A stretch of 64,000 nucleotides of DNA, from the NCBI GenBank assembly GCA_050947035.1, contig JBMNVW010000004.1, forward strand, positions 22,433 to 86,432, given 5' to 3'. The notes under the pieces are model-generated. The model worked only from the letters and a program-made list of their open reading frames with translations. It was not told where the DNA came from and did no database searches. Below, one piece after another: positions 7,070 to 36,959 of this stretch (position 1 is its first letter; each line of letters starts with the position of its first letter). Source of the DNA: Patescibacteria group bacterium. Lineage in GTDB: Bacteria; Patescibacteriota; Microgenomatia; 0-14-0-10-38-17. The translations under genes were made by a program, and so were the position numbers.

Positions 7070-8980
7070 TTAGTGGTTTGATTTTAGGTTAAAAATTTTT
7101 CGATGGATTTTTTTGGCTTTTTTAGTTGAACAATTATGATAAAAAGCCCGAAGAGTATATTTGTATTTTTCTTTGTCTTGATAAACATCCAAAACAACCA
7201 ATTGCCATAAAAATTTTGGATCAAATTGATTTTGGTATTTTTTAATTAATTTTTTCGGGTCCTTTTTTTCTTTAAAAAATAGATTAGCATCAAGGTCAAT
7301 TATTTGCTTTGTTAACTCTTTGGCGGAATGGTCTTTCAGTTGAGGTGGTTTTTGAAGGCTAATTTTAGGGATTTTTTCTAGAGATTTGCTTATTTTGTTA
7401 AGGTCTATTTCTACCATTGCCCCGTTTTTAACCTCTAAAAAAGTTTCCTTTTTGGTTTTTAATAAGCCCAAATCATGATAAAAAATTTTAATTCTTTTGG
7501 CTAGTCTTTTAGGGTCTTGGTCAAAAACACCTAAAGACCAGCGCTCCCGGTATTTATCCCCATCTTGATAGAAAATTTTACCAATCTCAAAAAAACGTTT
7601 TTGGGGAACTTTTAGTTTTTGATATTGTTGGCTTTGGACTTTTAGACAAGAACAAATTGAGGCTCGCAATAGGGGATATCGATTGTTAATATTATTTTCG
7701 GTGTAAACAGGCTTGGCCTCTTTTGGTAAGAAATCGGCTTTTAGAAATTGGTTTTTTTTGATTAATGGCCAAGAGCGAACCTCATCATAACCCAAATTAA
7801 CCAAGGTGTTTTTGGCCGCTTCAATTAAATGAAGCACTGGAGGAGTGATTTCTGGTAAAATCTTGGCCGAAATCGGTTGATTGGTGGGAATATTTTGATA
7901 GCCCCAAAAACGAATTACCTCTTCGGCCAAATCTTCTTCTAGCTCTAGATCGGTTCGATAAGAGGGGGGGGTTACTAGCCAAACTTCTTTTTGTCGGTGA
8001 TTAACTAAACAACCTAAAGACTGAAAAATTTTTAAGCAAAATCGGCTTTTAATATCTACTCCGGCAATGAGACTAGGGGCTTGAGGATGGAATTTAATTT
8101 GCTTTTTGTTTTGGGGTTTTTTTTCTTTGGGATAGTAGCTATAAACAGAGCTGATGATTTGCCCCTGGCAATTGGCTAAAATTAAATTTATTAAATGACT
8201 AAAAGCCGGAGGAACAAGGCCAAGATCCAATTTTTTTTCTAATCTTAAACTGGCCTCAGTGATTACTTTTAGATTTTTAGAATCTTCTCTTACCTTGGTA
8301 GGATTGTAAATGGCCATTTCAATAATCGCCTCTTTGGTATCAAGGCCAACTCCGGAATTTTTGCCGCCGACAATGCCCGCCAAACTCAAAACTTCTTTTT
8401 GGTTGCTGATTTGCAAGGTGTCTCTTTTTAAGGTAATTTTGCTACCGTCGAAACTAGTAAATTGGGCAAACTTACCCTGATTAAGTTCCCAAATAAGATT
8501 ATCAGTTGACTTTTGGGCATCGAAAGCATGATTGGGAATACCCCAAAGAAGCATGACGTAATTGGTTAGATCAACTAAAGTGTTAATAGAGCTGATGTCG
8601 TGAAGCTTTAGAAATTTTTTTAACCAGTCGGGAGAAGGTCGGTTTTCCAAAGAACCCATCTTTATTGCCATAATTCTTTTTACTTGATTTTTAGCCTTAA
8701 CCCGAAGAGGAAGTTTTTTTGAAGTCGTAATGGCCGGTAGAGTTTTTTGGGGGCTTTTAAAGGTTAAGTCATAAAGAGTAGCCAGGTCTTTGGCAATGCC
8801 CCAATAGCCTAGGCAATCAGCCCGGTTTTGCCTAATTTCTAAACTAATAACAATCTCTCCATCCTTATTTTCTATTTCTTCAACGAAATGGCCAATTAAA
8901 GTTAGATCTTGGGCCAGTTTTTCTACTGGCTGATTAAGATCAGGAAGCAGTTTTTTTAGCTTTGAGTAAACAATTTTCAT
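7070..8980 (-). CDS. pheT: phenylalanine--tRNA ligase beta subunit (short form, 636 aa)
   Basis: immediately downstream of and overlapping pheS (ATGA overlap); B3/4 and B5-like regions; shorter than canonical bacterial PheT. Confidence 0.8.
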   Translation of the reverse strand: MKIVYSKLKKLLPDLNQPVEKLAQDLTLIGHFVEEIENKDGEIVISLEIRQNRADCLGYWGIAKDLATLYDLTFKSPQKTLPAITTSKKLPLRVKAKNQVKRIMAIKMGSLENRPSPDWLKKFLKLHDISSINTLVDLTNYVMLLWGIPNHAFDAQKSTDNLIWELNQGKFAQFTSFDGSKITLKRDTLQISNQKEVLSLAGIVGGKNSGVGLDTKEAIIEMAIYNPTKVREDSKNLKVITEASLRLEKKLDLGLVPPAFSHLINLILANCQGQIISSVYSYYPKEKKPQNKKQIKFHPQAPSLIAGVDIKSRFCLKIFQSLGCLVNHRQKEVWLVTPPSYRTDLELEEDLAEEVIRFWGYQNIPTNQPISAKILPEITPPVLHLIEAAKNTLVNLGYDEVRSWPLIKKNQFLKADFLPKEAKPVYTENNINNRYPLLRASICSCLKVQSQQYQKLKVPQKRFFEIGKIFYQDGDKYRERWSLGVFDQDPKRLAKRIKIFYHDLGLLKTKKETFLEVKNGAMVEIDLNKISKSLEKIPKISLQKPPQLKDHSAKELTKQIIDLDANLFFKEKKDPKKLIKKYQNQFDPKFLWQLVVLDVYQDKEKYKYTLRAFYHNCSTKKAKKIHRKIFNLKSNH

Positions 8981-27206: not shown

Positions 27207-27449
27207 TTAATGGATTTTACTAACAAAAGGAATTAGGGCCAAGTGTCGTGCCTGTTTGATGGCTTTAGTTAATTTTCTTTGATGTTTGGCACAAACACCG
27301 GTATATTCGCGAGAGGCGATTTTTTTTCTTTCGGTAATAAAATTATTAAGAATTTCGACCTCCTTATAGTTGGGAACAGTGCCGTTTTGACAAAAAAAGC
27401 ATTTTTTTTTCGTTACTGATTTTTTTCTGTGAAAATTTCTTCTAGCCAT
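27207..27449 (-). CDS. rpsR: 30S ribosomal protein S18
   Basis: CFFCQNGTVPNYKEVEILNNFITERKKI matches S18 core. Confidence 0.9.
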   Translation of the reverse strand: MARRNFHRKKSVTKKKCFFCQNGTVPNYKEVEILNNFITERKKIASREYTGVCAKHQRKLTKAIKQARHLALIPFVSKIH

Positions 27450-27460
27450 AATTTTAATTT

Positions 27461-27946
27461 TTAAAAAGGAATGTCGCTGGTATCAACTTTTTCTTTATTT
27501 GTTTTTTTGGTTTTTTTTGGTTGAGATTTTTCTTCTTTTTTAGTTTCTTTAGAAGAAGAGCCTTCGTTTTGATCGTTTTTATCTTTTCCCTCTGGTGATC
27601 GACGGGAATCCAAAATCATCATTTCTGAAATAACCACTTCAGTAGTTTGTCTGGTGTTGCCTTCTTGGTCTTCCCACCGCCTGGTTTGCAATCTTCCCTC
27701 AACGTAAACTTTTCTTCCCTTAAATAAAAGTTGAGAACAGATTTCGGCTAATTTGTCCCAAGAGACAATTCGATGAAAAGAAACGTCTTCTTTTTTTTCT
27801 CCTTGGTCAGTAGTCCAGCTGCGGTTGGTAGCTAAGCCAAAGGAGCAAACTGCCGTACCCTTGCTAGTATAGCGCAACTCTGGATCTCGAGTTAAGTTGC
27901 CGATTAACATTACCTTGTTGAGAGAACGAGTACTCAAATTATTCAC
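27461..27946 (-). CDS. ssb: single-stranded DNA-binding protein
   Basis: OB-fold NKVMLIGNLTRDPELRYT and acidic C-terminal DIPF tail; rpsF-ssb-rpsR synteny. Confidence 0.9.
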   Translation of the reverse strand: MNNLSTRSLNKVMLIGNLTRDPELRYTSKGTAVCSFGLATNRSWTTDQGEKKEDVSFHRIVSWDKLAEICSQLLFKGRKVYVEGRLQTRRWEDQEGNTRQTTEVVISEMMILDSRRSPEGKDKNDQNEGSSSKETKKEEKSQPKKTKKTNKEKVDTSDIPF

Positions 27947-27951
27947 ACCCC

Positions 27952-28242
27952 CTATTCAATGACTATTAACAAATGTCTAATAATATTGTCGTTTAATTTT
28001 AAAATATTGTCAAGACGGCTAATTTTACTGGGGTCGGCCTCAAAGGCGAACCAATAATAGTAGGCGGTTGTTTCTTTTTGGATTGGGTAGGCCAAGTTTT
28101 TTTTACCCCAACTCTCCTCTTTCTTGATTTTACCGATATCCCCAAGAGCTTTTTTAATTTTTTCTAAATCTGCTTCTCCCTTTTTAGTTTTAGGGTTGAG
28201 ACAAGTAATAATTGTCAGCTCGTATTTTTTGTTTTTTGTCAT
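27952..28242 (-). CDS. rpsF: 30S ribosomal protein S6
   Basis: 96 aa, KYELTIITCLNPK...AYPI S6-like; first gene of rpsF-ssb-rpsR. Confidence 0.8.
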   Translation of the reverse strand: MTKNKKYELTIITCLNPKTKKGEADLEKIKKALGDIGKIKKEESWGKKNLAYPIQKETTAYYYWFAFEADPSKISRLDNILKLNDNIIRHLLIVIE

Positions 28243-29700: not shown

Positions 29701-29782
29701 GCCGAAGTGGCGGAACTGGCAGACGCGCACGGTTTAGGACCGTGTGGGGCAACCCGTGGGAGTTCAAATCTCCCCTTCGGCA
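29701..29782 (+). tRNA. tRNA-Leu (anticodon TAG)
   Basis: acceptor GCCGAAG/CTTCGGC, anticodon loop TTTAGGA, long variable arm, T-arm AGTTCAAATCT; no encoded CCA. Confidence 0.8.
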
Positions 29783-29867
29783 CGAGGATTTTTGAGAACA
29801 ATAATATATAATAATATTATTAATTTTTAGCCTAAAGACTAAAGACCAACGACTAAAGACTAAATTG

Positions 29868-29951
29868 GCCGCGGTGTTGGAACTGGCAGACAAGCAGCAC
29901 TTAAAATGCTGTGGGAGCAATCCCGTGAGGGTTCGATTCCCTCCCGCGGCA
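29868..29951 (+). tRNA. tRNA-Leu (anticodon TAA)
   Basis: acceptor GCCGCGG/CCGCGGC, anticodon loop CTTAAAA, long variable arm, T-arm GGTTCGATTCC. Confidence 0.8.
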
Positions 29952-30027
29952 CAAAAATTAACTATTGGCCGTTAGTCTTTAGTCTTTGGTTTTTTAAAAA
30001 TTTACAAATTAAACCCTTATTGCTAGA

Positions 30028-30945
30028 ATGAACGAAATGAAGAAGGTTTTTATCTGGCTATTTTTATTATCGTTTTTGTTTTTGGCTCCTCTAGCTCGAG
30101 CCCAAGTTGTTTCTCCTACCCCTGATCAAGAAGAGTCTCTTTTGGAAAATAATGACCAAGAAATATCTGAAGCCGATGAGGAGGCAGAAGAAATCGAGAA
30201 AGAGAAAAGCGAAAAAATTACTGAGCCGACTGAGGTAGTTAAGGGGCGCTTGACCCTACTTTTGGAAAGCCAGGAGTTAGGCGAATTAGGGATAGCTAAT
30301 TTCTTAAAATATGCGATTAGAAAAACAGTTGATCAAGGAATTCCCCCTAACACGGTAGTTTTGGTTTTTTTGCTTCCCTTGGTGGCCACTTTAATTACTA
30401 TTGTTCGTTATGTTTTTGGTATTTCTGGTTTTGGTATTTTTACTCCGGTGATGATTTCGGTTGCTTTTATTGCTACTGGCTTAACTCAAGGATTGGTTTT
30501 GTTTTTAATTATTGTGACTATTGCTATTTTAGCCCGCACCCTATTAAGAAAAGTTCGAGTTCACTTTTTACCTCGCATGTCTTTATTATTATGGTTTGTT
30601 TGTTTAGGAGTTTTTGCCCTTCTCTATTTAGGGCCTCAATTGGGCTTTGATGATGTGGCTGATATTTCTATTTTCCCGATTTTAATTGTTGTTCTCTTAG
30701 CGGAGAACTTTATTGAGGTTTTGATTGGCAAAAACAGTGCCGAGGCTCTAAAAATGACCGGCCAAACTTTAATTGTGGCCATTTTCGGGTTTTGGTTTTT
30801 AAATTGGCGGCCTCTTCAGGGCTTTGTTCTATTAAATCCAGAACTAGTTTTCTTGACCCTCTTAATTATTAATTTAATAATTGGGCGTTATTCGGGCCTG
30901 CGTTGGTTGGAGTATCGTCGCTTCCGTTCTATTTTTAAAAGTTAA
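30028..30945 (+). CDS. secreted seven-transmembrane protein (signal peptide, acidic ectodomain, 7 predicted TM helices)
   Basis: hydrophobicity pattern read from translation; first gene of a tightly coupled 5-gene operon. Confidence 0.55.
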   Translation: MNEMKKVFIWLFLLSFLFLAPLARAQVVSPTPDQEESLLENNDQEISEADEEAEEIEKEKSEKITEPTEVVKGRLTLLLESQELGELGIANFLKYAIRKTVDQGIPPNTVVLVFLLPLVATLITIVRYVFGISGFGIFTPVMISVAFIATGLTQGLVLFLIIVTIAILARTLLRKVRVHFLPRMSLLLWFVCLGVFALLYLGPQLGFDDVADISIFPILIVVLLAENFIEVLIGKNSAEALKMTGQTLIVAIFGFWFLNWRPLQGFVLLNPELVFLTLLIINLIIGRYSGLRWLEYRRFRSIFKS

Positions 30946-30959
30946 ACTTTATTTTCCCA

Positions 30960-32243
30960 ATGAAAAGATGGCCAGACATCTTGGGCATGAATGCCCGTAA
31001 TCATCAATATATTCGTCATAATACTAAAAAGGGTCGACAAATTGCCGATTCCAAGTTGGACACAAAAAAGATTTTAACTAAGCACAACTTGCCTACTCCG
31101 GAACTAATTAAGGTTTTTGAAAATAATGACGATCTTAATAATTTTTCTTGGGTCGGTTTACCGGATAATTTTGTTCTTAAGCCGTCGAGTGGCTTTGGTG
31201 GCGAAGGAATTTTGGTAATTAGAAAAAAAAGCCGTTTTGCCGGTGAGTGGGAGTTGATGAATGGCGAAATTATTGGTGTTTCTGATCTTAAGTTCCACGC
31301 TCAAGAAATTTTATCCGGTCGTTATAGTCTTCACAACGCTCCCGACCAGGCCTTTATTGAGGAACGGGTTAAGATTATTAAGGTTTTCGGTAAATATGTA
31401 AAGGGAGGGACACCCGATATTCGGGTGATCATTTTTAATAAGGTGCCGGTGATGGCCATGTTAAGATTGCCGACTGAGGAGTCTGATGGTAAGGCTAATC
31501 TTCATCAGGGGGCAGTGGGACTAGGAATTGATTTAGCTACCGGAGTGACCACTTATGGCATTCATCATGGCCGGTCAATTAAATACTTACCAGGAACGAG
31601 GATCAAGGTTAATGGTTTAAGGGTTCCTTCTTGGGAGCAAATTCTTCTTAATTCAGTTCGGACTCAAGAAGCCATTCCTTCCTTGGGTTACTTAGGGATT
31701 GATTTTTTAATTGATCGTAATAAGGGGCCGTTGATTGTTGAGTTAAATGCTCGGCCGGGTTTGTCGATTCAAGTAGCTAATCAAGCTGGTTTACAAAAAA
31801 GGCTGGAGCGAGTAGAAAGATTGGAAATTCGTAATCCTGAGCATGGGGTTAAGATTGCTAAAGCCTTGTTTGGGGCTAGTTTCGCCGATAAGGTAAATAG
31901 CAAGAATGAGCCTAAAATAATTAGCCTACTTGAAGAAATAAAAATTGTTGCCCAGGATAAGACTCGAATCCCAGTAATGGCTAAAGTTGATACTGGGGCT
32001 GACAGAAGCGCCATTGATGAGGAGCTGGCTCAAAGATTGGGGTTGCTGTCGAAGGATAATATTATTTATCAGGCTCGTTATCGAAGCGCCCTAGGCAAAC
32101 ATCGTCGGCCGATAATTGCCTTGAATTATTATTTGGCTGGCCAAAAAATTAATAGTATGGTTAGTGTGACCGATCGGAGCAAATTACGAACAAAGTTTTT
32201 GATTGGTAAAAGAGATTTGTTAGGTTTTGTTATTCGGCCATGA
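30960..32243 (+). CDS. ATP-grasp (RimK-like) ligase fused to C-terminal retropepsin-like aspartic protease domain
   Basis: ATP-grasp motifs FVLKPSSGFGGEGI and LIVELNARPG; C-terminal VDTGADRSAID (D-T-G-A aspartyl protease signature). Confidence 0.7.
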   Translation: MKRWPDILGMNARNHQYIRHNTKKGRQIADSKLDTKKILTKHNLPTPELIKVFENNDDLNNFSWVGLPDNFVLKPSSGFGGEGILVIRKKSRFAGEWELMNGEIIGVSDLKFHAQEILSGRYSLHNAPDQAFIEERVKIIKVFGKYVKGGTPDIRVIIFNKVPVMAMLRLPTEESDGKANLHQGAVGLGIDLATGVTTYGIHHGRSIKYLPGTRIKVNGLRVPSWEQILLNSVRTQEAIPSLGYLGIDFLIDRNKGPLIVELNARPGLSIQVANQAGLQKRLERVERLEIRNPEHGVKIAKALFGASFADKVNSKNEPKIISLLEEIKIVAQDKTRIPVMAKVDTGADRSAIDEELAQRLGLLSKDNIIYQARYRSALGKHRRPIIALNYYLAGQKINSMVSVTDRSKLRTKFLIGKRDLLGFVIRP

Positions 32244-33295
32244 AGTTTTTTAAAAATAAGAAAATAATTATTATTGTTATTCTTTTGCTTCTGGTTACGG
32301 CCGGGGTTGCTTTTGCTGTTTCAAAGTCGGACTCTGTTTCTAAAAAAGAAGCCGTGGAAACGGTTAAGGTTAAAAGAGGCGATTTATCTTTAATTGTCTC
32401 TGCCTCGGGGCAAATTGATGCCCAAGAAAAAGCCCAGGTTAGATTTCAGACTTCAGGACAATTGGCCTGGGTGGGAGTAGCCGAAGGCGACCGGGTGAAA
32501 AAATGGCAGGCCCTGGCCTCACTTGATAAAAAAGAATTAGAAAAGAGATTAGAAAAAGAACTTAATGATTTTATGACTCAAAAGTGGACCTTTGACCAAA
32601 CCCATGATGATTATCAAGAAGAAAAAGATAATGCCGTCATCACCAAAGAAATTGAGCGGATTTTAGATAAGGCCCAATTTGCTTTGAGCAATCAGGTTAT
32701 TGATGTTGAATTGGCCGATTTGGCCCTAAAATATGCCACTATTTATTCGCCAATTAATGGTATTGTTACCGAAATTGACTCTCCCCTACCAGGAGTAAAC
32801 ATTACTCCCGCTCAGGCGACTTTTATGGTTGTTAATCCCGATTCTCTGGCTTTTTATTTAAAAATTAATGAAACAGAGGTGGTTGGTTTACAAGAGGGTC
32901 AGGAAGTTGCTGTTCGGCTTGATGCTTTTCCGAGTCAAGAATTTCCTGGTCAAATTAACAAAATTGGTTTTATTCCTCTCTCCGGGCAGGGAACTTATTA
33001 TCAAGTAATAGTTTCTTTTGAAGAAAAAAATTCTGCTTTTCGAGTCGGCATGGGTGGTGATGGCCAGATCTTAATTGAGAAAAAAACTGGAGTGTTAATT
33101 GTGCCGGAATCGGCTTTGATTAAACGAGGAGATACTTATTCAGTCTTCCAGATTATTGATGGCCAAGCCCGAAAAAGGCCGGTTGTTATTGGTTTAATTT
33201 CTGATCAGGGAGTCGAGGTTATTGAAGGACTAGAAGAGGGTCAGGTAGTTATTTCTTCTGGGGTGAGTAAAATTAGCGATGGTCAAAAAATCTAA
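32240..33295 (+). CDS. periplasmic adaptor (HlyD/MacA-like membrane fusion protein)
   Basis: N-terminal TM anchor, coiled-coil hairpin and beta-barrel/lipoyl-like segments; start overlaps previous stop (ATGA). Confidence 0.75.
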   Translation: MKFFKNKKIIIIVILLLLVTAGVAFAVSKSDSVSKKEAVETVKVKRGDLSLIVSASGQIDAQEKAQVRFQTSGQLAWVGVAEGDRVKKWQALASLDKKELEKRLEKELNDFMTQKWTFDQTHDDYQEEKDNAVITKEIERILDKAQFALSNQVIDVELADLALKYATIYSPINGIVTEIDSPLPGVNITPAQATFMVVNPDSLAFYLKINETEVVGLQEGQEVAVRLDAFPSQEFPGQINKIGFIPLSGQGTYYQVIVSFEEKNSAFRVGMGGDGQILIEKKTGVLIVPESALIKRGDTYSVFQIIDGQARKRPVVIGLISDQGVEVIEGLEEGQVVISSGVSKISDGQKI

Positions 33296-33998
33296 ACCCT
33301 CATCAGATCAACGGCCGGTTTATCGGTTAAAAAATATCAAAAGACGTTATCAAACCGGCCAAGTCGAAGTTCAGGCGTTAAGGGGTATAGATTTATTGAT
33401 TGACCCAGGTGAGTTTGTGGCTTTGGTTGGTTCGTCTGGTTCTGGTAAATCAACCCTAATGCATGTTTTGGGTCTTTTAGATCGCCCAGACGACGGTAGG
33501 CTATATCTTCAAGGAAAAGAGGTTTCTGCCCTTTCTGAGGGTCAAAGAGCGCGTCTTAGACGGGATAAAATTGGCTTTGTTTTCCAAACTTTTCACCTTT
33601 TACCTAGATTAACAGCCTTAGAGAACGTTGAGCTTCCTTTAATTTATAGTCATGTTTCTTATAGTCAAAGACTAGATCGGGCTCGAAAAAATTTGGCCTT
33701 AGTTGGTTTGTCTGATCGGGTGGATCATTTGCCAACGGAACTTTCTGGTGGCCAGCAACAGCGAGTAGCCATCGCTCGAGCTCTAATTAACAATCCTTCG
33801 GTAGTTTTAGCGGATGAGCCTACTGGCAATTTGGATAGTGGGTCGGGTAAAGAAATAATGGCTATTTTTAAAAAACTTAACCATCGGGGTCGAACAATTG
33901 TTTTGGTTACCCATGATCTTGAAATTGCCCAATCGGCCCAAAGATTAGTGACTATCAAAGACGGCTTAATTACTAAAGATAAAAAAAATGTTGCTTAA
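33279..33998 (+). CDS. ABC transporter ATP-binding protein (MacB/LolD-type)
   Basis: Walker [13 protein letters not shown] signature [15 protein letters not shown], Walker B VVLADEPT. Confidence 0.9.
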
Positions 33999-35184
33999 TT
34001 TAGAAATTTTTAAAGTTGCTCTTCGTTCTTTGTGGGCCAATAAAATGCGCTCCTTTTTAACAATGCTGGGGATTATTATTGGGGTAGCGGCGGTTATTGC
34101 CTTAGTTTCTATTGGTACCGGCCTAAAACTTTTTATAACGGAACAGTTTGAGGCCCTAGGAAGCAACTTAATTTATGTTTATCCGGGGGACTTATCCGGT
34201 GGTTTCAGAGAGCAGGCCTTGATTAGTAAAATAAGATTAGAAGACCAACACCATCAAGCCATCGCTCGCCTAGATATGCCAATTGAGGCTATTTCAGCGA
34301 TGACTCAAGTTGCTGACGAAGCTAAATATAGAGAAAATACTTTTACTTCGGTTATTTTAGGAGCGGAGTCAAGTTATGGCCAGATAGCCAATGTTGATCT
34401 TGAAATAGGTCGATTCTTTTCTGAAAACGAGGAAGAAAGAAGAAAAAAAGTTGCCATACTTGGTAATCGGGCTGTCGAAGAAATTTTTCCCGGTATTGAT
34501 CCTTTAGGAAAAAGTTTTTTCTTGGCGGGAACGTCTTTTGAGGTGATTGGAACCCTGGAGGAACAGGGTGGTGGAGCAATGGGATCTTCTTCGATTGACG
34601 ATACGATTATTATTCCTCTAGAGACAGCCAAGACTCTCTTTAGTCAAGAAGAATACAGCGCCATTGTTATTAAAGCCCAGTCTGAGGAGGATATTGATGA
34701 AATTAAGGCTTCGGTTGAAGAGGAACTGCTTGGTTTTTTTGATGAAGGTGATTTTTCGATTCTTGACCAGAAGCAAATTTTAAACCAAATTGATAGTATT
34801 TTGGGGATGTTGACTTTAGCCTTAGGAGGAATTGCCGCCATATCTTTATTGGTGGGAGGGATTGGGATAATGAATATTATGTTGGTGTCGGTAACAGAGA
34901 GAACCGCCGAAATTGGCCTAAGAAAAGCCGTTGGGGCAGAAAATAAAGATATTTTAATTCAATTTATTATCGAGTCAGTTCTTTTGAGTGTTTTGGGTGG
35001 TTTAATAGGAGTAATTTTTGGCATTTTAGGCTCATTGGCAATTGGCTCTTTTTTAGAAACAGCCGTTACCCCTTGGTCAGTTTTGTTGGCTTTTTCTATC
35101 TCAACCCTAATAGGAATAATTTTCGGAGTTGCCCCAGCTAAAAAAGCGTCCAGCCTTGATCCGATTGAGGCGTTAAGATACTAG
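33988..35184 (+). CDS. ABC transporter permease, FtsX/MacB-type
   Basis: N-terminal TM, large extracytoplasmic MacB_PCD-like domain, C-terminal 3-TM FtsX domain. Confidence 0.8.
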
Positions 35185-35423
35185 GGCCGATTAAAATCGG
35201 CAATTTCCAATTTTCCAATTTTCCAATATCCAAACAAATTCCAAATCTCAAATTATAAATTACAAAAATAAATTATTATATTGTTATATGGATTTTTTAA
35301 GAATCAAAGTATCGCCAATAATTTAAAACAATTAAACATTTTAACAACAGACTATTAAATCATTAAACAATTAGAAGTTGATTAAAAATTAAAATTAGCA
35401 ATTAGAAATTAAATAGTATTTTT

Positions 35424-36635: not shown

Positions 36636-36636
36636 G

Positions 36637-36709
36637 TGCACCCAGAGAGATTCGAACTCTCGACCTGCCGCTTAAGAGGCGGATGCTCTACCAGCTGAGC
36701 TATGGGTGC
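36637..36709 (-). tRNA. tRNA-Lys (anticodon CTT)
   Basis: acceptor GCACCCA/TGGGTGC, D-arm TAGCTCAGCTGGTAGAGC, anticodon loop CTCTTAA, T-arm AGTTCGAATCT. Confidence 0.75.
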
Positions 36710-36959
36710 GAATATATTCTTTAATAAATTTTCTTCCTTGGGCGGTTTTTAATTGTTTTTCTCTTTTGATGGCCTCTTTTCGACCAGGGAACATTTCTTT
36801 ATAAATCAATACCCAGGGCCCTTTGTTTTTATAAGTGTAACTTGTTTTTTTATTATTAATAATTTTATTATGTCTTTGGAGTCTTTTTTCTAGATTGCCT
36901 GTTTGGCCGATGTAAATTTTACCACTAAACTGACTTTTTATAACATAAGCGTAATACAT
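36672..36959 (-). CDS. small GIY-YIG nuclease-domain protein (COG2827/YhbQ-like)
   Basis: YAYVIKS..GKIYIGQTGNLEKRLQRH GIY-YIG core; ORF runs 38 nt into tRNA-Lys with no earlier stop, so the C-terminus is uncertain. Confidence 0.65.
   Translation of the reverse strand: MYYAYVIKSQFSGKIYIGQTGNLEKRLQRHNKIINNKKTSYTYKNKGPWVLIYKEMFPGRKEAIKREKQLKTAQGRKFIKEYIRTHSSAGRASAS

What the first reader, a model, noticed from the sequence alone, without database searches (positions are those of the whole stretch)
30028..35184. 7TM membrane protein, ATP-grasp::retropepsin fusion and MacAB-like exporter in one translationally coupled operon
Five plus-strand genes are separated by 14 nt or overlap. The first is a secreted protein with an acidic ectodomain and seven TM helices. 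The second is a RimK-like ATP-grasp ligase whose C-terminus carries a retropepsin-type VDTGAD aspartic-protease domain, giving ligase and protease in one polypeptide. Then come a membrane-fusion adaptor, an ABC ATPase and an FtsX-type permease. Computational surveys have predicted ATP-grasp plus retropepsin-like peptidase plus 7TM associations as peptide-tagging or tag-removal systems. To my knowledge none has been characterised biochemically. The in-operon link to a MacB-type exporter suggests the 7TM protein or a secreted peptide is modified and exported.
Basis: partly seen in the sequence, partly recalled or inferred. Interest (0 to 1): 0.7.

Follow-up and report, generated by a model that had tools for sequence, protein, structure and literature searches.

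The report
Ligase-protease fusion with 7TM partner
This is the Patescibacteria version of a recently described bacterial system that adds and trims amino-acid tails (Rim/Rlo), here with the ligase and the trimming protease joined in one cytoplasmic protein next to a seven-helix membrane partner, while the neighbouring MacAB-type exporter is a local neighbour and not a conserved part of the system.

Summary
The five plus-strand genes, their spacing and their domain content are as described. The first two genes form a strongly conserved pair. One is a signal-peptide 7TM protein (PF14402, the membrane half of RloB without its transglutaminase-like domain). The other is an RloC-type ATP-grasp ligase fused to an intact retropepsin domain of the RimB/RloA lineage. 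Across 99 related fusion loci the 7TM gene sits immediately upstream in 77 of 80 testable cases. The MacAB-like genes follow in only 4 of 76, all in the window's own clade (≥70% identity), with variable gaps or two genes in between. The usual downstream partners are extra RimK-like ATP-grasp genes (57 of 76), which this window lacks. The claim that no such system has been characterised is outdated: RimK/RimB (2020) and RloABC (2025) are the same kind. What is undescribed is this variant: a cytoplasmic, fused protease that goes with loss of the extracytoplasmic domain of RloB. Sister architectures exist (retropepsin::7TM; ATP-grasp::retropepsin::MATCAP). Best reading: a membrane-associated ligase and trimming module for acidic (probably glutamate) chains. 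The exporter is merely co-transcribed with it in this strain. It is a new variant of a known kind, of moderate interest.

The parts
30001..30029 (+). Promoter-like site TTTACA-17 nt-TAGAAT (with TG) whose -10 hexamer overlaps the ATG at 30028. The real start may therefore be the ATG at 30037 (MKKVF...), possibly on a leaderless transcript.
   Evidence: (10 of 12 matches; the scan as a whole is not enriched over shuffles) and the sequence. Pattern match only.
30028..30945 (+). 7TM membrane protein, equivalent to the membrane half of RloB without the transglutaminase-like domain. Signal peptide res 1-25 (30028-30102); disordered acidic spacer res 26-71 (30103-30240); conserved juxtamembrane helices res 72-105; seven-helix domain res 107-288 (30346-30891); basic amphipathic cytoplasmic tail res 289-305.
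   Evidence: PF14402 E 4e-31. The NCBIfam RloB model matches only at positions 296-507 of 508. AF2 model pLDDT 76.6, about 90 in the helices and below 50 for res 24-71. Invariant N108, T109, E226, Q264, E272, R292, E295.
30960..32243 (+). Fusion protein. RloC-type ATP-grasp ligase (res 13-286, 30996-31817); disordered linker (res 307-317, 31878-31910); retropepsin-like domain (res 320-427, 31917-32240). No signal peptide or TM segment, so both domains are cytoplasmic.
   Evidence: AF2 pLDDT 81.9. Foldseek top hits are ArgX/LysX, RimK, cyanophycin synthetase and Ddl.
31989..32000 (+). Codons for the catalytic D344-T-G-A347 of the retropepsin domain.
   Evidence: Invariant in A1. D[TS]GA is kept in 84 of 98 non-redundant fusion proteins. 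It aligns with the DTGA of RloA 9G59/9G58.
32240..33295 (+). Membrane-fusion (periplasmic adaptor) protein with an N-terminal anchor, MacA/YknX-like. Neighbour, not a conserved partner.
   Evidence: RND_mfp TIGR01730 E 6e-50, MacA 1e-30; YknX-type Pfam domains. Linkage test.
33279..33998 (+). ABC ATPase of the MacB/LolD/FtsE type.
   Evidence: ABC_tran E 8e-36; MacB N-terminal part E 9e-82.
33988..35184 (+). MacB-type permease (MacB_PCD extracytoplasmic domain plus FtsX C-terminal domain).
   Evidence: PF12704 E 4e-45, PF02687 E 1e-20.
35186..35201 (+). Hairpin GCCGAT-taaa-ATCGGC directly after the FtsX stop codon, followed by a 240-nt AT-rich spacer. Probable end of the transcription unit.
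   Evidence: Read from the sequence. Not reported by the terminator scan. Inference.

Best explanation
The region holds two units. Unit 1 (30028-32243) is the Patescibacteria form of the Rim/Rlo system that adds and trims amino-acid chains. An RloC-type ATP-grasp ligase works at the cytoplasmic face of the membrane together with the 7TM protein encoded just upstream, and builds an acidic amino-acid chain, most likely alpha-linked glutamate. The retropepsin domain fused to the ligase becomes active when two fusion proteins pair, because each chain supplies one catalytic Asp. It cuts long chains and so limits or releases the product. The 7TM protein most likely passes the chain, or the molecule that carries it, across the membrane. 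This would explain why related lineages can place the protease on either side of the membrane: fused to the ligase inside (here); secreted, with a transglutaminase-like ectodomain on the 7TM protein (Proteobacteria); or fused to the outer N-terminus of the 7TM protein (Actinomycetota). Unit 2 (32240-35184) is an ordinary MacAB/YknXYZ-type exporter. In this strain it abuts unit 1 and is probably co-transcribed with it, because the extra ATP-grasp genes found in relatives are missing. It is not a conserved component. Shown: gene order, domains, intact active sites, conservation statistics. Inferred: glutamate as the building block, dimer activation, chain translocation by the 7TM protein.
For: Identity: ATPgrasp_ST E 4e-63 and TIGR02291 E 5e-84, against the RimK family at 5e-14. 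The fold groups with RimK, LysX/ArgX and cyanophycin synthetase. The C-terminal profile matches RloA structures 9G59/9G58 at 6e-8 and 2e-5. K342, R383 and R406 align with the K-x-D, 'RP' and 'DRS' basic residues of RloA. By spacing these correspond to K46, R114 and R137, which bind polyglutamate. Conserved pair: the 7TM gene lies immediately upstream in 77/80 fusion loci and 62/63 unfused loci. Co-variation: fused loci have a 7TM protein of median 296 aa and no separate protease ORF. Unfused loci have a median of 509 aa (transglutaminase-like domain present) and a separate retropepsin ORF in the locus in at least 35/61, typically just upstream. Eraser logic: ATP-grasp::retropepsin::MATCAP triple fusions exist. 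All six such loci in my set have a degraded retropepsin motif, while two database representatives keep it. Retropepsin::7TM fusions show a physical link between protease and 7TM protein. Published biology: RimK adds and RimB trims Glu tails (PMC7343187). RloA cleaves stretches of 8 or more Glu, and loss of rloB or rloC suppresses loss of the proteases (PMC12239564). Exporter incidental: MFP/FtsX lie downstream in 4/76 loci, only at ≥70% ATP-grasp identity, with gaps of -4, 35 and 315 nt or two inserted genes. The whole neighbourhood is collinear in those relatives.
Confidence: 0.55

Rival explanations
1. One reading: all five genes form one functional system, in which the ligase/protease modifies the 7TM protein or a peptide and the MacAB-type pump exports the product.
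For: In the window the genes overlap or are 14 nt apart, with no predicted internal promoter or terminator. The arrangement is kept in three relatives. A second lineage (L011) has an ABC/FtsX pair next to the 7TM gene. MacB-type pumps do export peptides in other bacteria (established knowledge).
Against: MFP/FtsX are absent downstream in 72 of 76 fusion loci, including all 71 below 70% identity. Within the clade the junction varies: 4-nt overlap, 35 nt, 315 nt, or two inserted ATP-grasp genes. The relatives that keep it also keep the entire surrounding gene order, so this is local synteny. MacB-type transporters are common, so two independent juxtapositions among about 90 lineages is about what chance would give (rough estimate, not computed on whole genomes).
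Confidence: 0.1
2. The 7TM protein is itself the substrate. The ligase adds an amino-acid tail to its cytoplasmic C-terminal tail or a loop (for example at the invariant E295), and the protease removes it, switching the membrane protein on and off.
For: Strict adjacency of the two genes. Conserved cytoplasmic tail motif LRxLEYxRFR with invariant R292 and E295. RimK, LysX and TTL-type ligases do modify protein carboxylates (established knowledge; for fold similarity).
Against: The extreme C-terminus is not conserved and is basic, not acidic (…RFRSIFKS), unlike known RimK or LysW acceptors. In Proteobacteria and in L024 the proteases are extracytoplasmic (PMC12239564) and could not reach a tag on a cytoplasmic tail, yet they act in the same pathway as RloB and RloC.
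Confidence: 0.12
3. The 7TM protein is only a membrane anchor or envelope-stress sensor that controls the ligase. The ligase and protease act on a soluble cytoplasmic target, as RimK/RimB act on ribosomal protein S6.
For: The protease is cytoplasmic here, as RimB is. rpsF lies 1.8 kb upstream in the window. Rlo phenotypes are osmotic and envelope-related.
Against: The rpsF linkage exists only in the window's clade (4 loci). This S6 ends in …VIE without an acidic tail. The ligase is RloC-type, not RimK-type (TIGR00768 at 52 bits against a 143 cut-off). Many invariant polar and charged residues inside the membrane domain argue for more than an anchor. Retropepsin::7TM fusions place the protease outside the cell.
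Confidence: 0.18

Closest known systems
RloABC operon of Pseudomonas aeruginosa (Lormand et al., mBio 2025, PMC12239564)
   Same: Same three building blocks and the same 7TM-then-ATP-grasp gene order: a PF05618-lineage retropepsin, a PF14402 7TM protein and a TIGR02291-type ATP-grasp. The basic residues that bind polyglutamate in RloA are conserved by alignment.
   Different: Here the protease is fused to the C-terminus of the ligase, has no signal peptide and is therefore cytoplasmic. It also lacks the ~30-residue flap insertion of RloA. The 7TM protein lacks the inactive transglutaminase ectodomain. Most relatives add one or two RimK-like ligase genes. The host is Patescibacteria, whereas the paper reports 96% of RloB hits in Proteobacteria.
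RimK-RimB (-RimA) system (Grenga et al., PLoS Genet 2020, PMC7343187)
   Same: A cytoplasmic ATP-grasp ligase plus a cytoplasmic PF05618 retropepsin that trims the ligase's product. RimB and RimK interact physically, which a fusion makes permanent.
   Different: The ligase is not of the RimK family by the NCBIfam cut-off. There is an obligatory 7TM partner. There is no conserved link to rpsF, and S6 here has no acidic tail.
Tubulin tyrosination cycle (TTL ligase and MATCAP carboxypeptidase)
   Same: An ATP-grasp ligase paired with a peptidase that removes residues from acidic C-terminal tails. Sister proteins of this fusion carry a MATCAP (PF08014) domain with an intact HExxH motif.
   Different: The window's protein has no MATCAP domain. 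The comparison is by analogy and domain co-occurrence only.
MacAB-TolC / Bacillus YknXYZ tripartite ABC exporters
   Same: Genes 3-5 have the defining domains: an adaptor with YknX-type barrel domains, an ABC ATPase, and a MacB_PCD+FtsX permease.
   Different: The ATPase and permease are separate polypeptides, whereas they are fused in E. coli MacB. No outer-membrane partner is expected in this lineage. No conserved link to the ligase module.

Membership tests
RloABC system | RloC-type ATP-grasp (TIGR02291 / PF14397) | tested here: inconclusive
   PF14397 at 213.7 bits (cut-off 31.4) is met. TIGR02291 is by far the best NCBIfam hit (282 bits, E 5e-84) but is below its cut-off of 314. 42-48% identity to ATP-grasp genes next to long RloB genes.
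RloABC system | 7TM domain of RloB (PF14402) encoded immediately upstream of the ligase | tested here: met
   PF14402 at 108.7 bits (cut-off 25). Adjacency in 77/80 fused and 62/63 unfused loci.
RloABC system | Inactive transglutaminase ectodomain on RloB | tested here: not met
   The RloB model NF052267 matches only positions 296-507 (92 bits against a cut-off of 900). Only ~95 residues precede the 7TM domain, and they are partly disordered.
RloABC system | Separate, secreted RloA retropepsin with a signal peptide | tested here: not met
   The protease domain is the C-terminus of the ligase. There is no signal peptide or TM segment. No separate retropepsin ORF occurs in any fused locus.
RloABC system | Retropepsin fold of the PF05618 (RimB/RloA) lineage with catalytic D-T/S-G-A | tested here: met
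   Profile against 9G59 E 6e-8 and 9G58 2e-5. DTGA and G416..D419 are invariant. All-beta model with pLDDT ~90. The single-sequence Pfam PF05618 score is below cut-off (20.4 against 27).
RloABC system | Cleavage of polyglutamate; osmotic-stress phenotype | not testable with these tools
   Only alignment-level conservation of K342, R383 and R406 with the polyE-binding residues.
RimK-RimB system | RimK-family ligase (TIGR00768) | tested here: not met
   52.3 bits against a cut-off of 143.4.
RimK-RimB system | Ribosomal protein S6 with an acidic C-terminus as substrate, or linkage to it | tested here: not met
   S6 here ends …LLIVIE. rpsF is adjacent only in 4 clade-local loci.
RimK-RimB system | Cytoplasmic retropepsin acting with the ligase | tested here: met
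   Fusion to an ATP-dependent enzyme without export signals. Localisation is inferred from sequence.
MacAB-type tripartite ABC exporter (genes 3-5) | Adaptor plus ABC ATPase plus permease with MacB_PCD and FtsX domains | tested here: met
   4 of 76 loci, all at ≥70% identity and with a variable junction.

The most novel reading that the evidence does not exclude
The 7TM protein and the ATP-grasp fusion together form a synthase-coupled secretion machine for a ribosome-independent acidic peptide polymer. The ligase(s) polymerise glutamate-like residues at the membrane. The PF14402 7TM domain, a fold with no solved relative, threads the chain to the cell surface. The built-in protease sets chain length or releases the chain. 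This would be a widespread, previously unrecognised envelope-polymer pathway of Patescibacteria, and it would explain the mechanism of RloBC in pathogens.
Probability: 0.25. Interest if true: 0.75.

Novelty: new variant of a known kind. Interest (0 to 1): 0.45.

Why it matters
RloB and RloC affect antibiotic tolerance, biofilm formation and cell shape in Pseudomonas, but what they do biochemically is unknown. The Patescibacteria form is a stripped-down natural version: two genes, with ligase and protease in one chain and no ectodomain. Together with the sister architectures found here, it constrains the mechanism. The protease can sit on either side of the membrane and can be replaced by a MATCAP-type carboxypeptidase. 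That points to a chain that is built inside, trimmed, and probably passed through the 7TM protein. It also offers a compact construct for heterologous expression. Finally, it shows that the system is not confined to Proteobacteria, as the published survey suggested.

Tried and rejected

(2) Foldseek of the whole fusion model listed only ATP-grasp hits in the top 50. The C-terminal domain had to be assigned by sequence profile instead.

(3) S6 as substrate was rejected: rpsF adjacency is clade-local and S6 has no acidic tail.

(4) I looked for remnants of deleted ATP-grasp genes in the 315-nt gap of L082 and found none. Loss in the window's lineage versus gain in L084 therefore stays unresolved, although the wide distribution of the extra ligases favours loss.

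(5) MgsA as an ancestral neighbour was rejected: hits in distant loci were weak AAA-domain matches far upstream.

(6) I first read L024 as a C-terminal fusion. ORF inspection showed an unfused ligase with two extracytoplasmic proteases.

(7) The original computational paper (Iyer et al. 2009, PMC3268129) is not held. What I say about it rests on memory and on the Pfam family names.

(8) Literature searches for Rlo follow-ups, for Patescibacteria plus ATP-grasp plus RimK, and for the Pfam accessions found nothing beyond the two papers cited.

(9) The Rfam scan of the window found only tRNAs, so no leader or riboswitch.
Full report
**Observation.** The ORF list reproduces the five plus-strand genes exactly:

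| Coordinates | Length |
|---|---|
| 30028-30945 | 305 aa |
| 30960-32243 | 427 aa |
| 32240-33295 | 351 aa |
| 33279-33998 | 239 aa |
| 33988-35184 | 398 aa |

The junctions are a 14-nt gap followed by overlaps of 4, 17 and 11 nt. Two tRNA-Leu genes lie just upstream. A 6-bp hairpin and a 240-nt AT-rich spacer follow the last stop codon. Source names of near-identical proteins place the window in Patescibacteria, near Candidatus Shapirobacteria.

**Domains.**
- Protein 1 is a PF14402 7TM protein (E 4e-31). The NCBIfam model for RloB matches it only over the model's C-terminal membrane half, positions 296-507 of 508. It has a signal peptide and a variable acidic stretch that AlphaFold leaves disordered (pLDDT below 50 for residues 24-71). 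Two short conserved helices follow, then seven confident membrane helices and a basic amphipathic tail. This gives an N-out, C-in topology.
- Protein 2 is an ATPgrasp_ST ligase (E 4e-63). Its best NCBIfam hit is the 'alpha-L-glutamate ligase-like' family TIGR02291 (E 5e-84, just under the cut-off), far above RimK proper.
- The C-terminal 108 residues of protein 2 match aspartic-protease families only weakly as a single sequence. A profile of 21 homologous domains matches the RloA crystal structures 9G59 (E 6e-8) and 9G58 (2e-5), then ApRick and DDI1. These two entries are the structures deposited by Lormand et al..
- In a 22-sequence alignment the ATP-grasp residues K74, G78/G81/G83, E134-E135, D248, E261, N263 and R265 are invariant. 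So are the protease residues D344, G346, A347, G416 and D419.
- The AlphaFold model (pLDDT 81.9) shows an ATP-grasp body, a disordered linker (307-317) and an all-beta C-terminal domain. Foldseek groups the body with LysX/ArgX, RimK, cyanophycin synthetase and Ddl.
- Proteins 3-5 are a MacA/YknX-like adaptor, an ABC ATPase and a MacB_PCD+FtsX permease.

**What is conserved.** I collected 165 related loci from species-representative genomes, metagenome contigs and exact-protein look-ups. I mapped the window's proteins onto them and found 99 loci that carry the fusion.

| Feature | Loci with it | Loci with enough flanking sequence |
|---|---|---|
| 7TM gene immediately upstream | 77 | 80 |
| Further ATP-grasp genes downstream (RimK-like PF08443 or ATP-grasp_3) | 57 (two or more copies in 29) | 76 |
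| MFP/FtsX genes downstream | 4 | 76 |

The window has no such extra ligase anywhere in its 64 kb.

The four loci with MFP/FtsX downstream are the window's own sequence and three relatives with at least 70% ATP-grasp identity. Among the 71 loci below 70% identity there is none. In the three relatives the entire neighbourhood is collinear, from rpsF-ssb-rpsR through to MgsA and acetyl-CoA synthetase. The junction varies between them: a 315-nt gap (L082), a 35-nt gap (L083), or two ATP-grasp genes inserted between the fusion and the exporter (L084).

One unrelated Woesebacteria locus (L011) has an ABC plus FtsX-type permease directly upstream of the 7TM gene. Two independent juxtapositions among roughly ninety lineages is about what the abundance of MacB-type transporters would give by chance. 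That estimate is rough and was not computed on whole genomes.

The exporter is therefore a neighbour that this strain probably co-transcribes with the module. It is not a conserved part of the system.

**What is known.**
- In Pseudomonas, RimK adds glutamates to ribosomal protein S6. The PF05618 protease RimB trims the tails to about four residues (PMC7343187).
- In 2025 the rloABC operon was described: RloA, a secreted retropepsin; RloB, an inactive transglutaminase domain plus 7TM; RloC, a cytoplasmic ATP-grasp.
- RloA cleaves stretches of eight or more glutamates in vitro. Loss of the three RloA paralogs causes hypo-osmotic lethality, and loss of rloB or rloC suppresses it (PMC12239564).
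- The ligase activity of RloC and the role of RloB remain untested.

The window's first two genes are clearly of this kind. K342, R383 and R406 align with the K-x-D, 'RP' and 'DRS' basic residues of RloA. By their spacing these correspond to the polyglutamate-binding K46, R114 and R137. They are kept in 84-86 of 98 fusion proteins.

**What is different.** An ORF-level comparison shows a clean co-variation.

| | Fused loci (n=81) | Unfused loci (n=61), mostly Proteobacteria, also Omnitrophota, Desulfobacterota, Nitrospirota, Verrucomicrobiota |
|---|---|---|
| 7TM protein, median length | 296 aa | 509 aa |
| Residues before the membrane domain | ~95 | ~315 |
| Separate protease ORF | none | in at least 35, typically just upstream of the 7TM gene (rloA-rloB-rloC order) |

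So a cytoplasmic, fused protease goes with loss of the extracytoplasmic domain.

An exhaustive search with the protease domain alone, followed by Pfam scans, revealed further architectures:
- retropepsin::7TM proteins of 340-420 aa. In L024, from an actinobacterial MAG, the protease follows a signal/anchor sequence and is therefore outside the cell.
- ATP-grasp::retropepsin::MATCAP proteins of about 790-800 aa.
- one ATP-grasp::retropepsin::YdjC protein.

MATCAP is the metallocarboxypeptidase family that reverses the ATP-grasp ligase TTL on acidic tubulin tails. All six MATCAP-bearing loci in my set have a degraded retropepsin motif (DTTK, NTAK, NTTR, NSTR, DPAL, NPLV). Two database representatives keep DSGA or DTGA and an intact HExxH. 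Overall, 84 of 98 fusion proteins keep D[TS]GA.

**Mechanism.** The ligase and an eraser peptidase are kept together in one polypeptide, the eraser can be exchanged, and both are tied to the 7TM protein. Retropepsins need two chains to form one active site (established knowledge). Pairing of two fusion proteins would therefore switch on the trimming activity. The protease can be cytoplasmic (here), periplasmic (Rlo), or tethered to the outer face of the 7TM protein (L024-type). This is easiest to explain if the substrate is a chain made inside and passed through the membrane by the 7TM protein. The many invariant polar residues in its helices (N108, T109, E226, Q264, E272) fit such a role.

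That last step is inference. The 7TM model has no recognisable solved relative. The co-variation may also rest on few evolutionary events. Glutamate as the building block is extrapolated from RimK and from RloA specificity.

**Rivals.**
1. *A five-gene export system.* Contradicted by the synteny data.
2. *The 7TM protein as the tagged substrate.* Its extreme C-terminus is basic and not conserved, and extracytoplasmic proteases in other lineages could not reach a cytoplasmic tag.
3. *A soluble target such as S6, with the 7TM protein as sensor or anchor.* The rpsF linkage is clade-local, S6 lacks an acidic tail, and the ligase is not RimK-type.

**Verdict.** The core is a new variant of a known kind. 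I found no description of it in the searchable literature. It is common in Patescibacteria, and its architecture helps to narrow down how RloBC-type systems work.

Noticed in passing
L019:4817-7222, L020:5947-8319, L021:6980-9352, L023:6977-9364, L162:1998-4367, L165:5986-8340; proteins P0356, P0375: Triple fusions ATPgrasp_ST::retropepsin::MATCAP (PF08014, tubulin-detyrosinase family, HExxH intact). In all six loci the retropepsin catalytic motif is degraded, whereas P0356 and P0375 keep DSGA/DTGA. This looks like replacement of one eraser peptidase by another.
   Followed up: partly
L024:5805-6962 and 7871-8386; proteins P0293, P0296, P0305, P0324, P0345, P0261: A recurrent retropepsin::7TM_transglut architecture, with the protease at the extracytoplasmic N-terminus of the 7TM protein. 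P0261 has two protease domains. L024 (Rubrobacteraceae MAG) also has a second, separately anchored retropepsin after an unfused ATP-grasp.
   Followed up: partly
P0363 (688 aa): ATPgrasp_ST::retropepsin::YdjC-like (carbohydrate deacetylase family) fusion with an intact DTGA. This hints at a sugar-linked substrate in some lineages.
   Followed up: no
P0333 (539 aa): A class-I lysyl-tRNA synthetase with a C-terminal PF05618-like retropepsin domain. This may be a real fusion or a gene-calling artefact. Unexplained.
   Followed up: no
e.g. L084:9281-11674, L011:8311-10082, L087:5919-8238: One or two extra ATP-grasp genes (RimK-like PF08443, or a ~470-490 aa ATP-grasp_3 protein) follow the fusion in 57 of 76 loci. 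They are absent from the whole 64-kb window, so this lineage runs a reduced version.
   Followed up: partly
L085:10778-12563 (minus strand): A class-I glutamine amidotransferase / peptidase C26-like gene (gamma-glutamyl hydrolase family) and a RimK-like ligase lie convergent to the module in a 61%-identity relative. This is another glutamyl-bond enzyme in the neighbourhood.
   Followed up: no
L146, L148, L152, L153, L155, L156: A subclade of ordinary-length fusions in which DTGA has become NTGR, so the protease is presumably inactive, with no MATCAP domain. The domain is kept, which suggests a non-catalytic role such as binding or dimerisation.
   Followed up: partly
window 29701-29783, 29868-29952, 30001-30037: Two tRNA-Leu genes (tag, taa) lie directly upstream on the same strand. 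A promoter-like site has its -10 box overlapping the annotated ATG, so translation may start at the ATG at 30037 on a leaderless mRNA, or the operon may be read through from the tRNAs.
   Followed up: no
window 27207-28242 (minus strand): An rpsF-ssb-rpsR cluster lies 1.8 kb upstream. S6 is the classical RimK substrate, but the linkage is seen only in four closely related loci and this S6 ends …VIE without an acidic tail.
   Followed up: yes
window 36636-36959 (minus strand): The 95-aa GIY-YIG ORF (36672-36959) overlaps tRNA-Lys (36636-36709) by about 38 nt at its 3' end. The same small GIY-YIG gene is present in relative L082.
   Followed up: no
L011:3309-6984: In a Woesebacteria genome an ABC ATPase and a 664-aa FtsX-type permease sit directly upstream of the 7TM gene on the same strand. 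This is the only other juxtaposition with a MacB-type system.
   Followed up: partly
L002-L010, L012-L016, L018: The closest genome-collection loci carry record titles such as 'uncultured Gammaproteobacteria/Pseudomonadales/Bdellovibrionales bacterium'. Their fusion proteins nevertheless group with Microgenomates sequences at 44-59% identity and share the Patescibacteria-type architecture. The labels may be unreliable.
   Followed up: no
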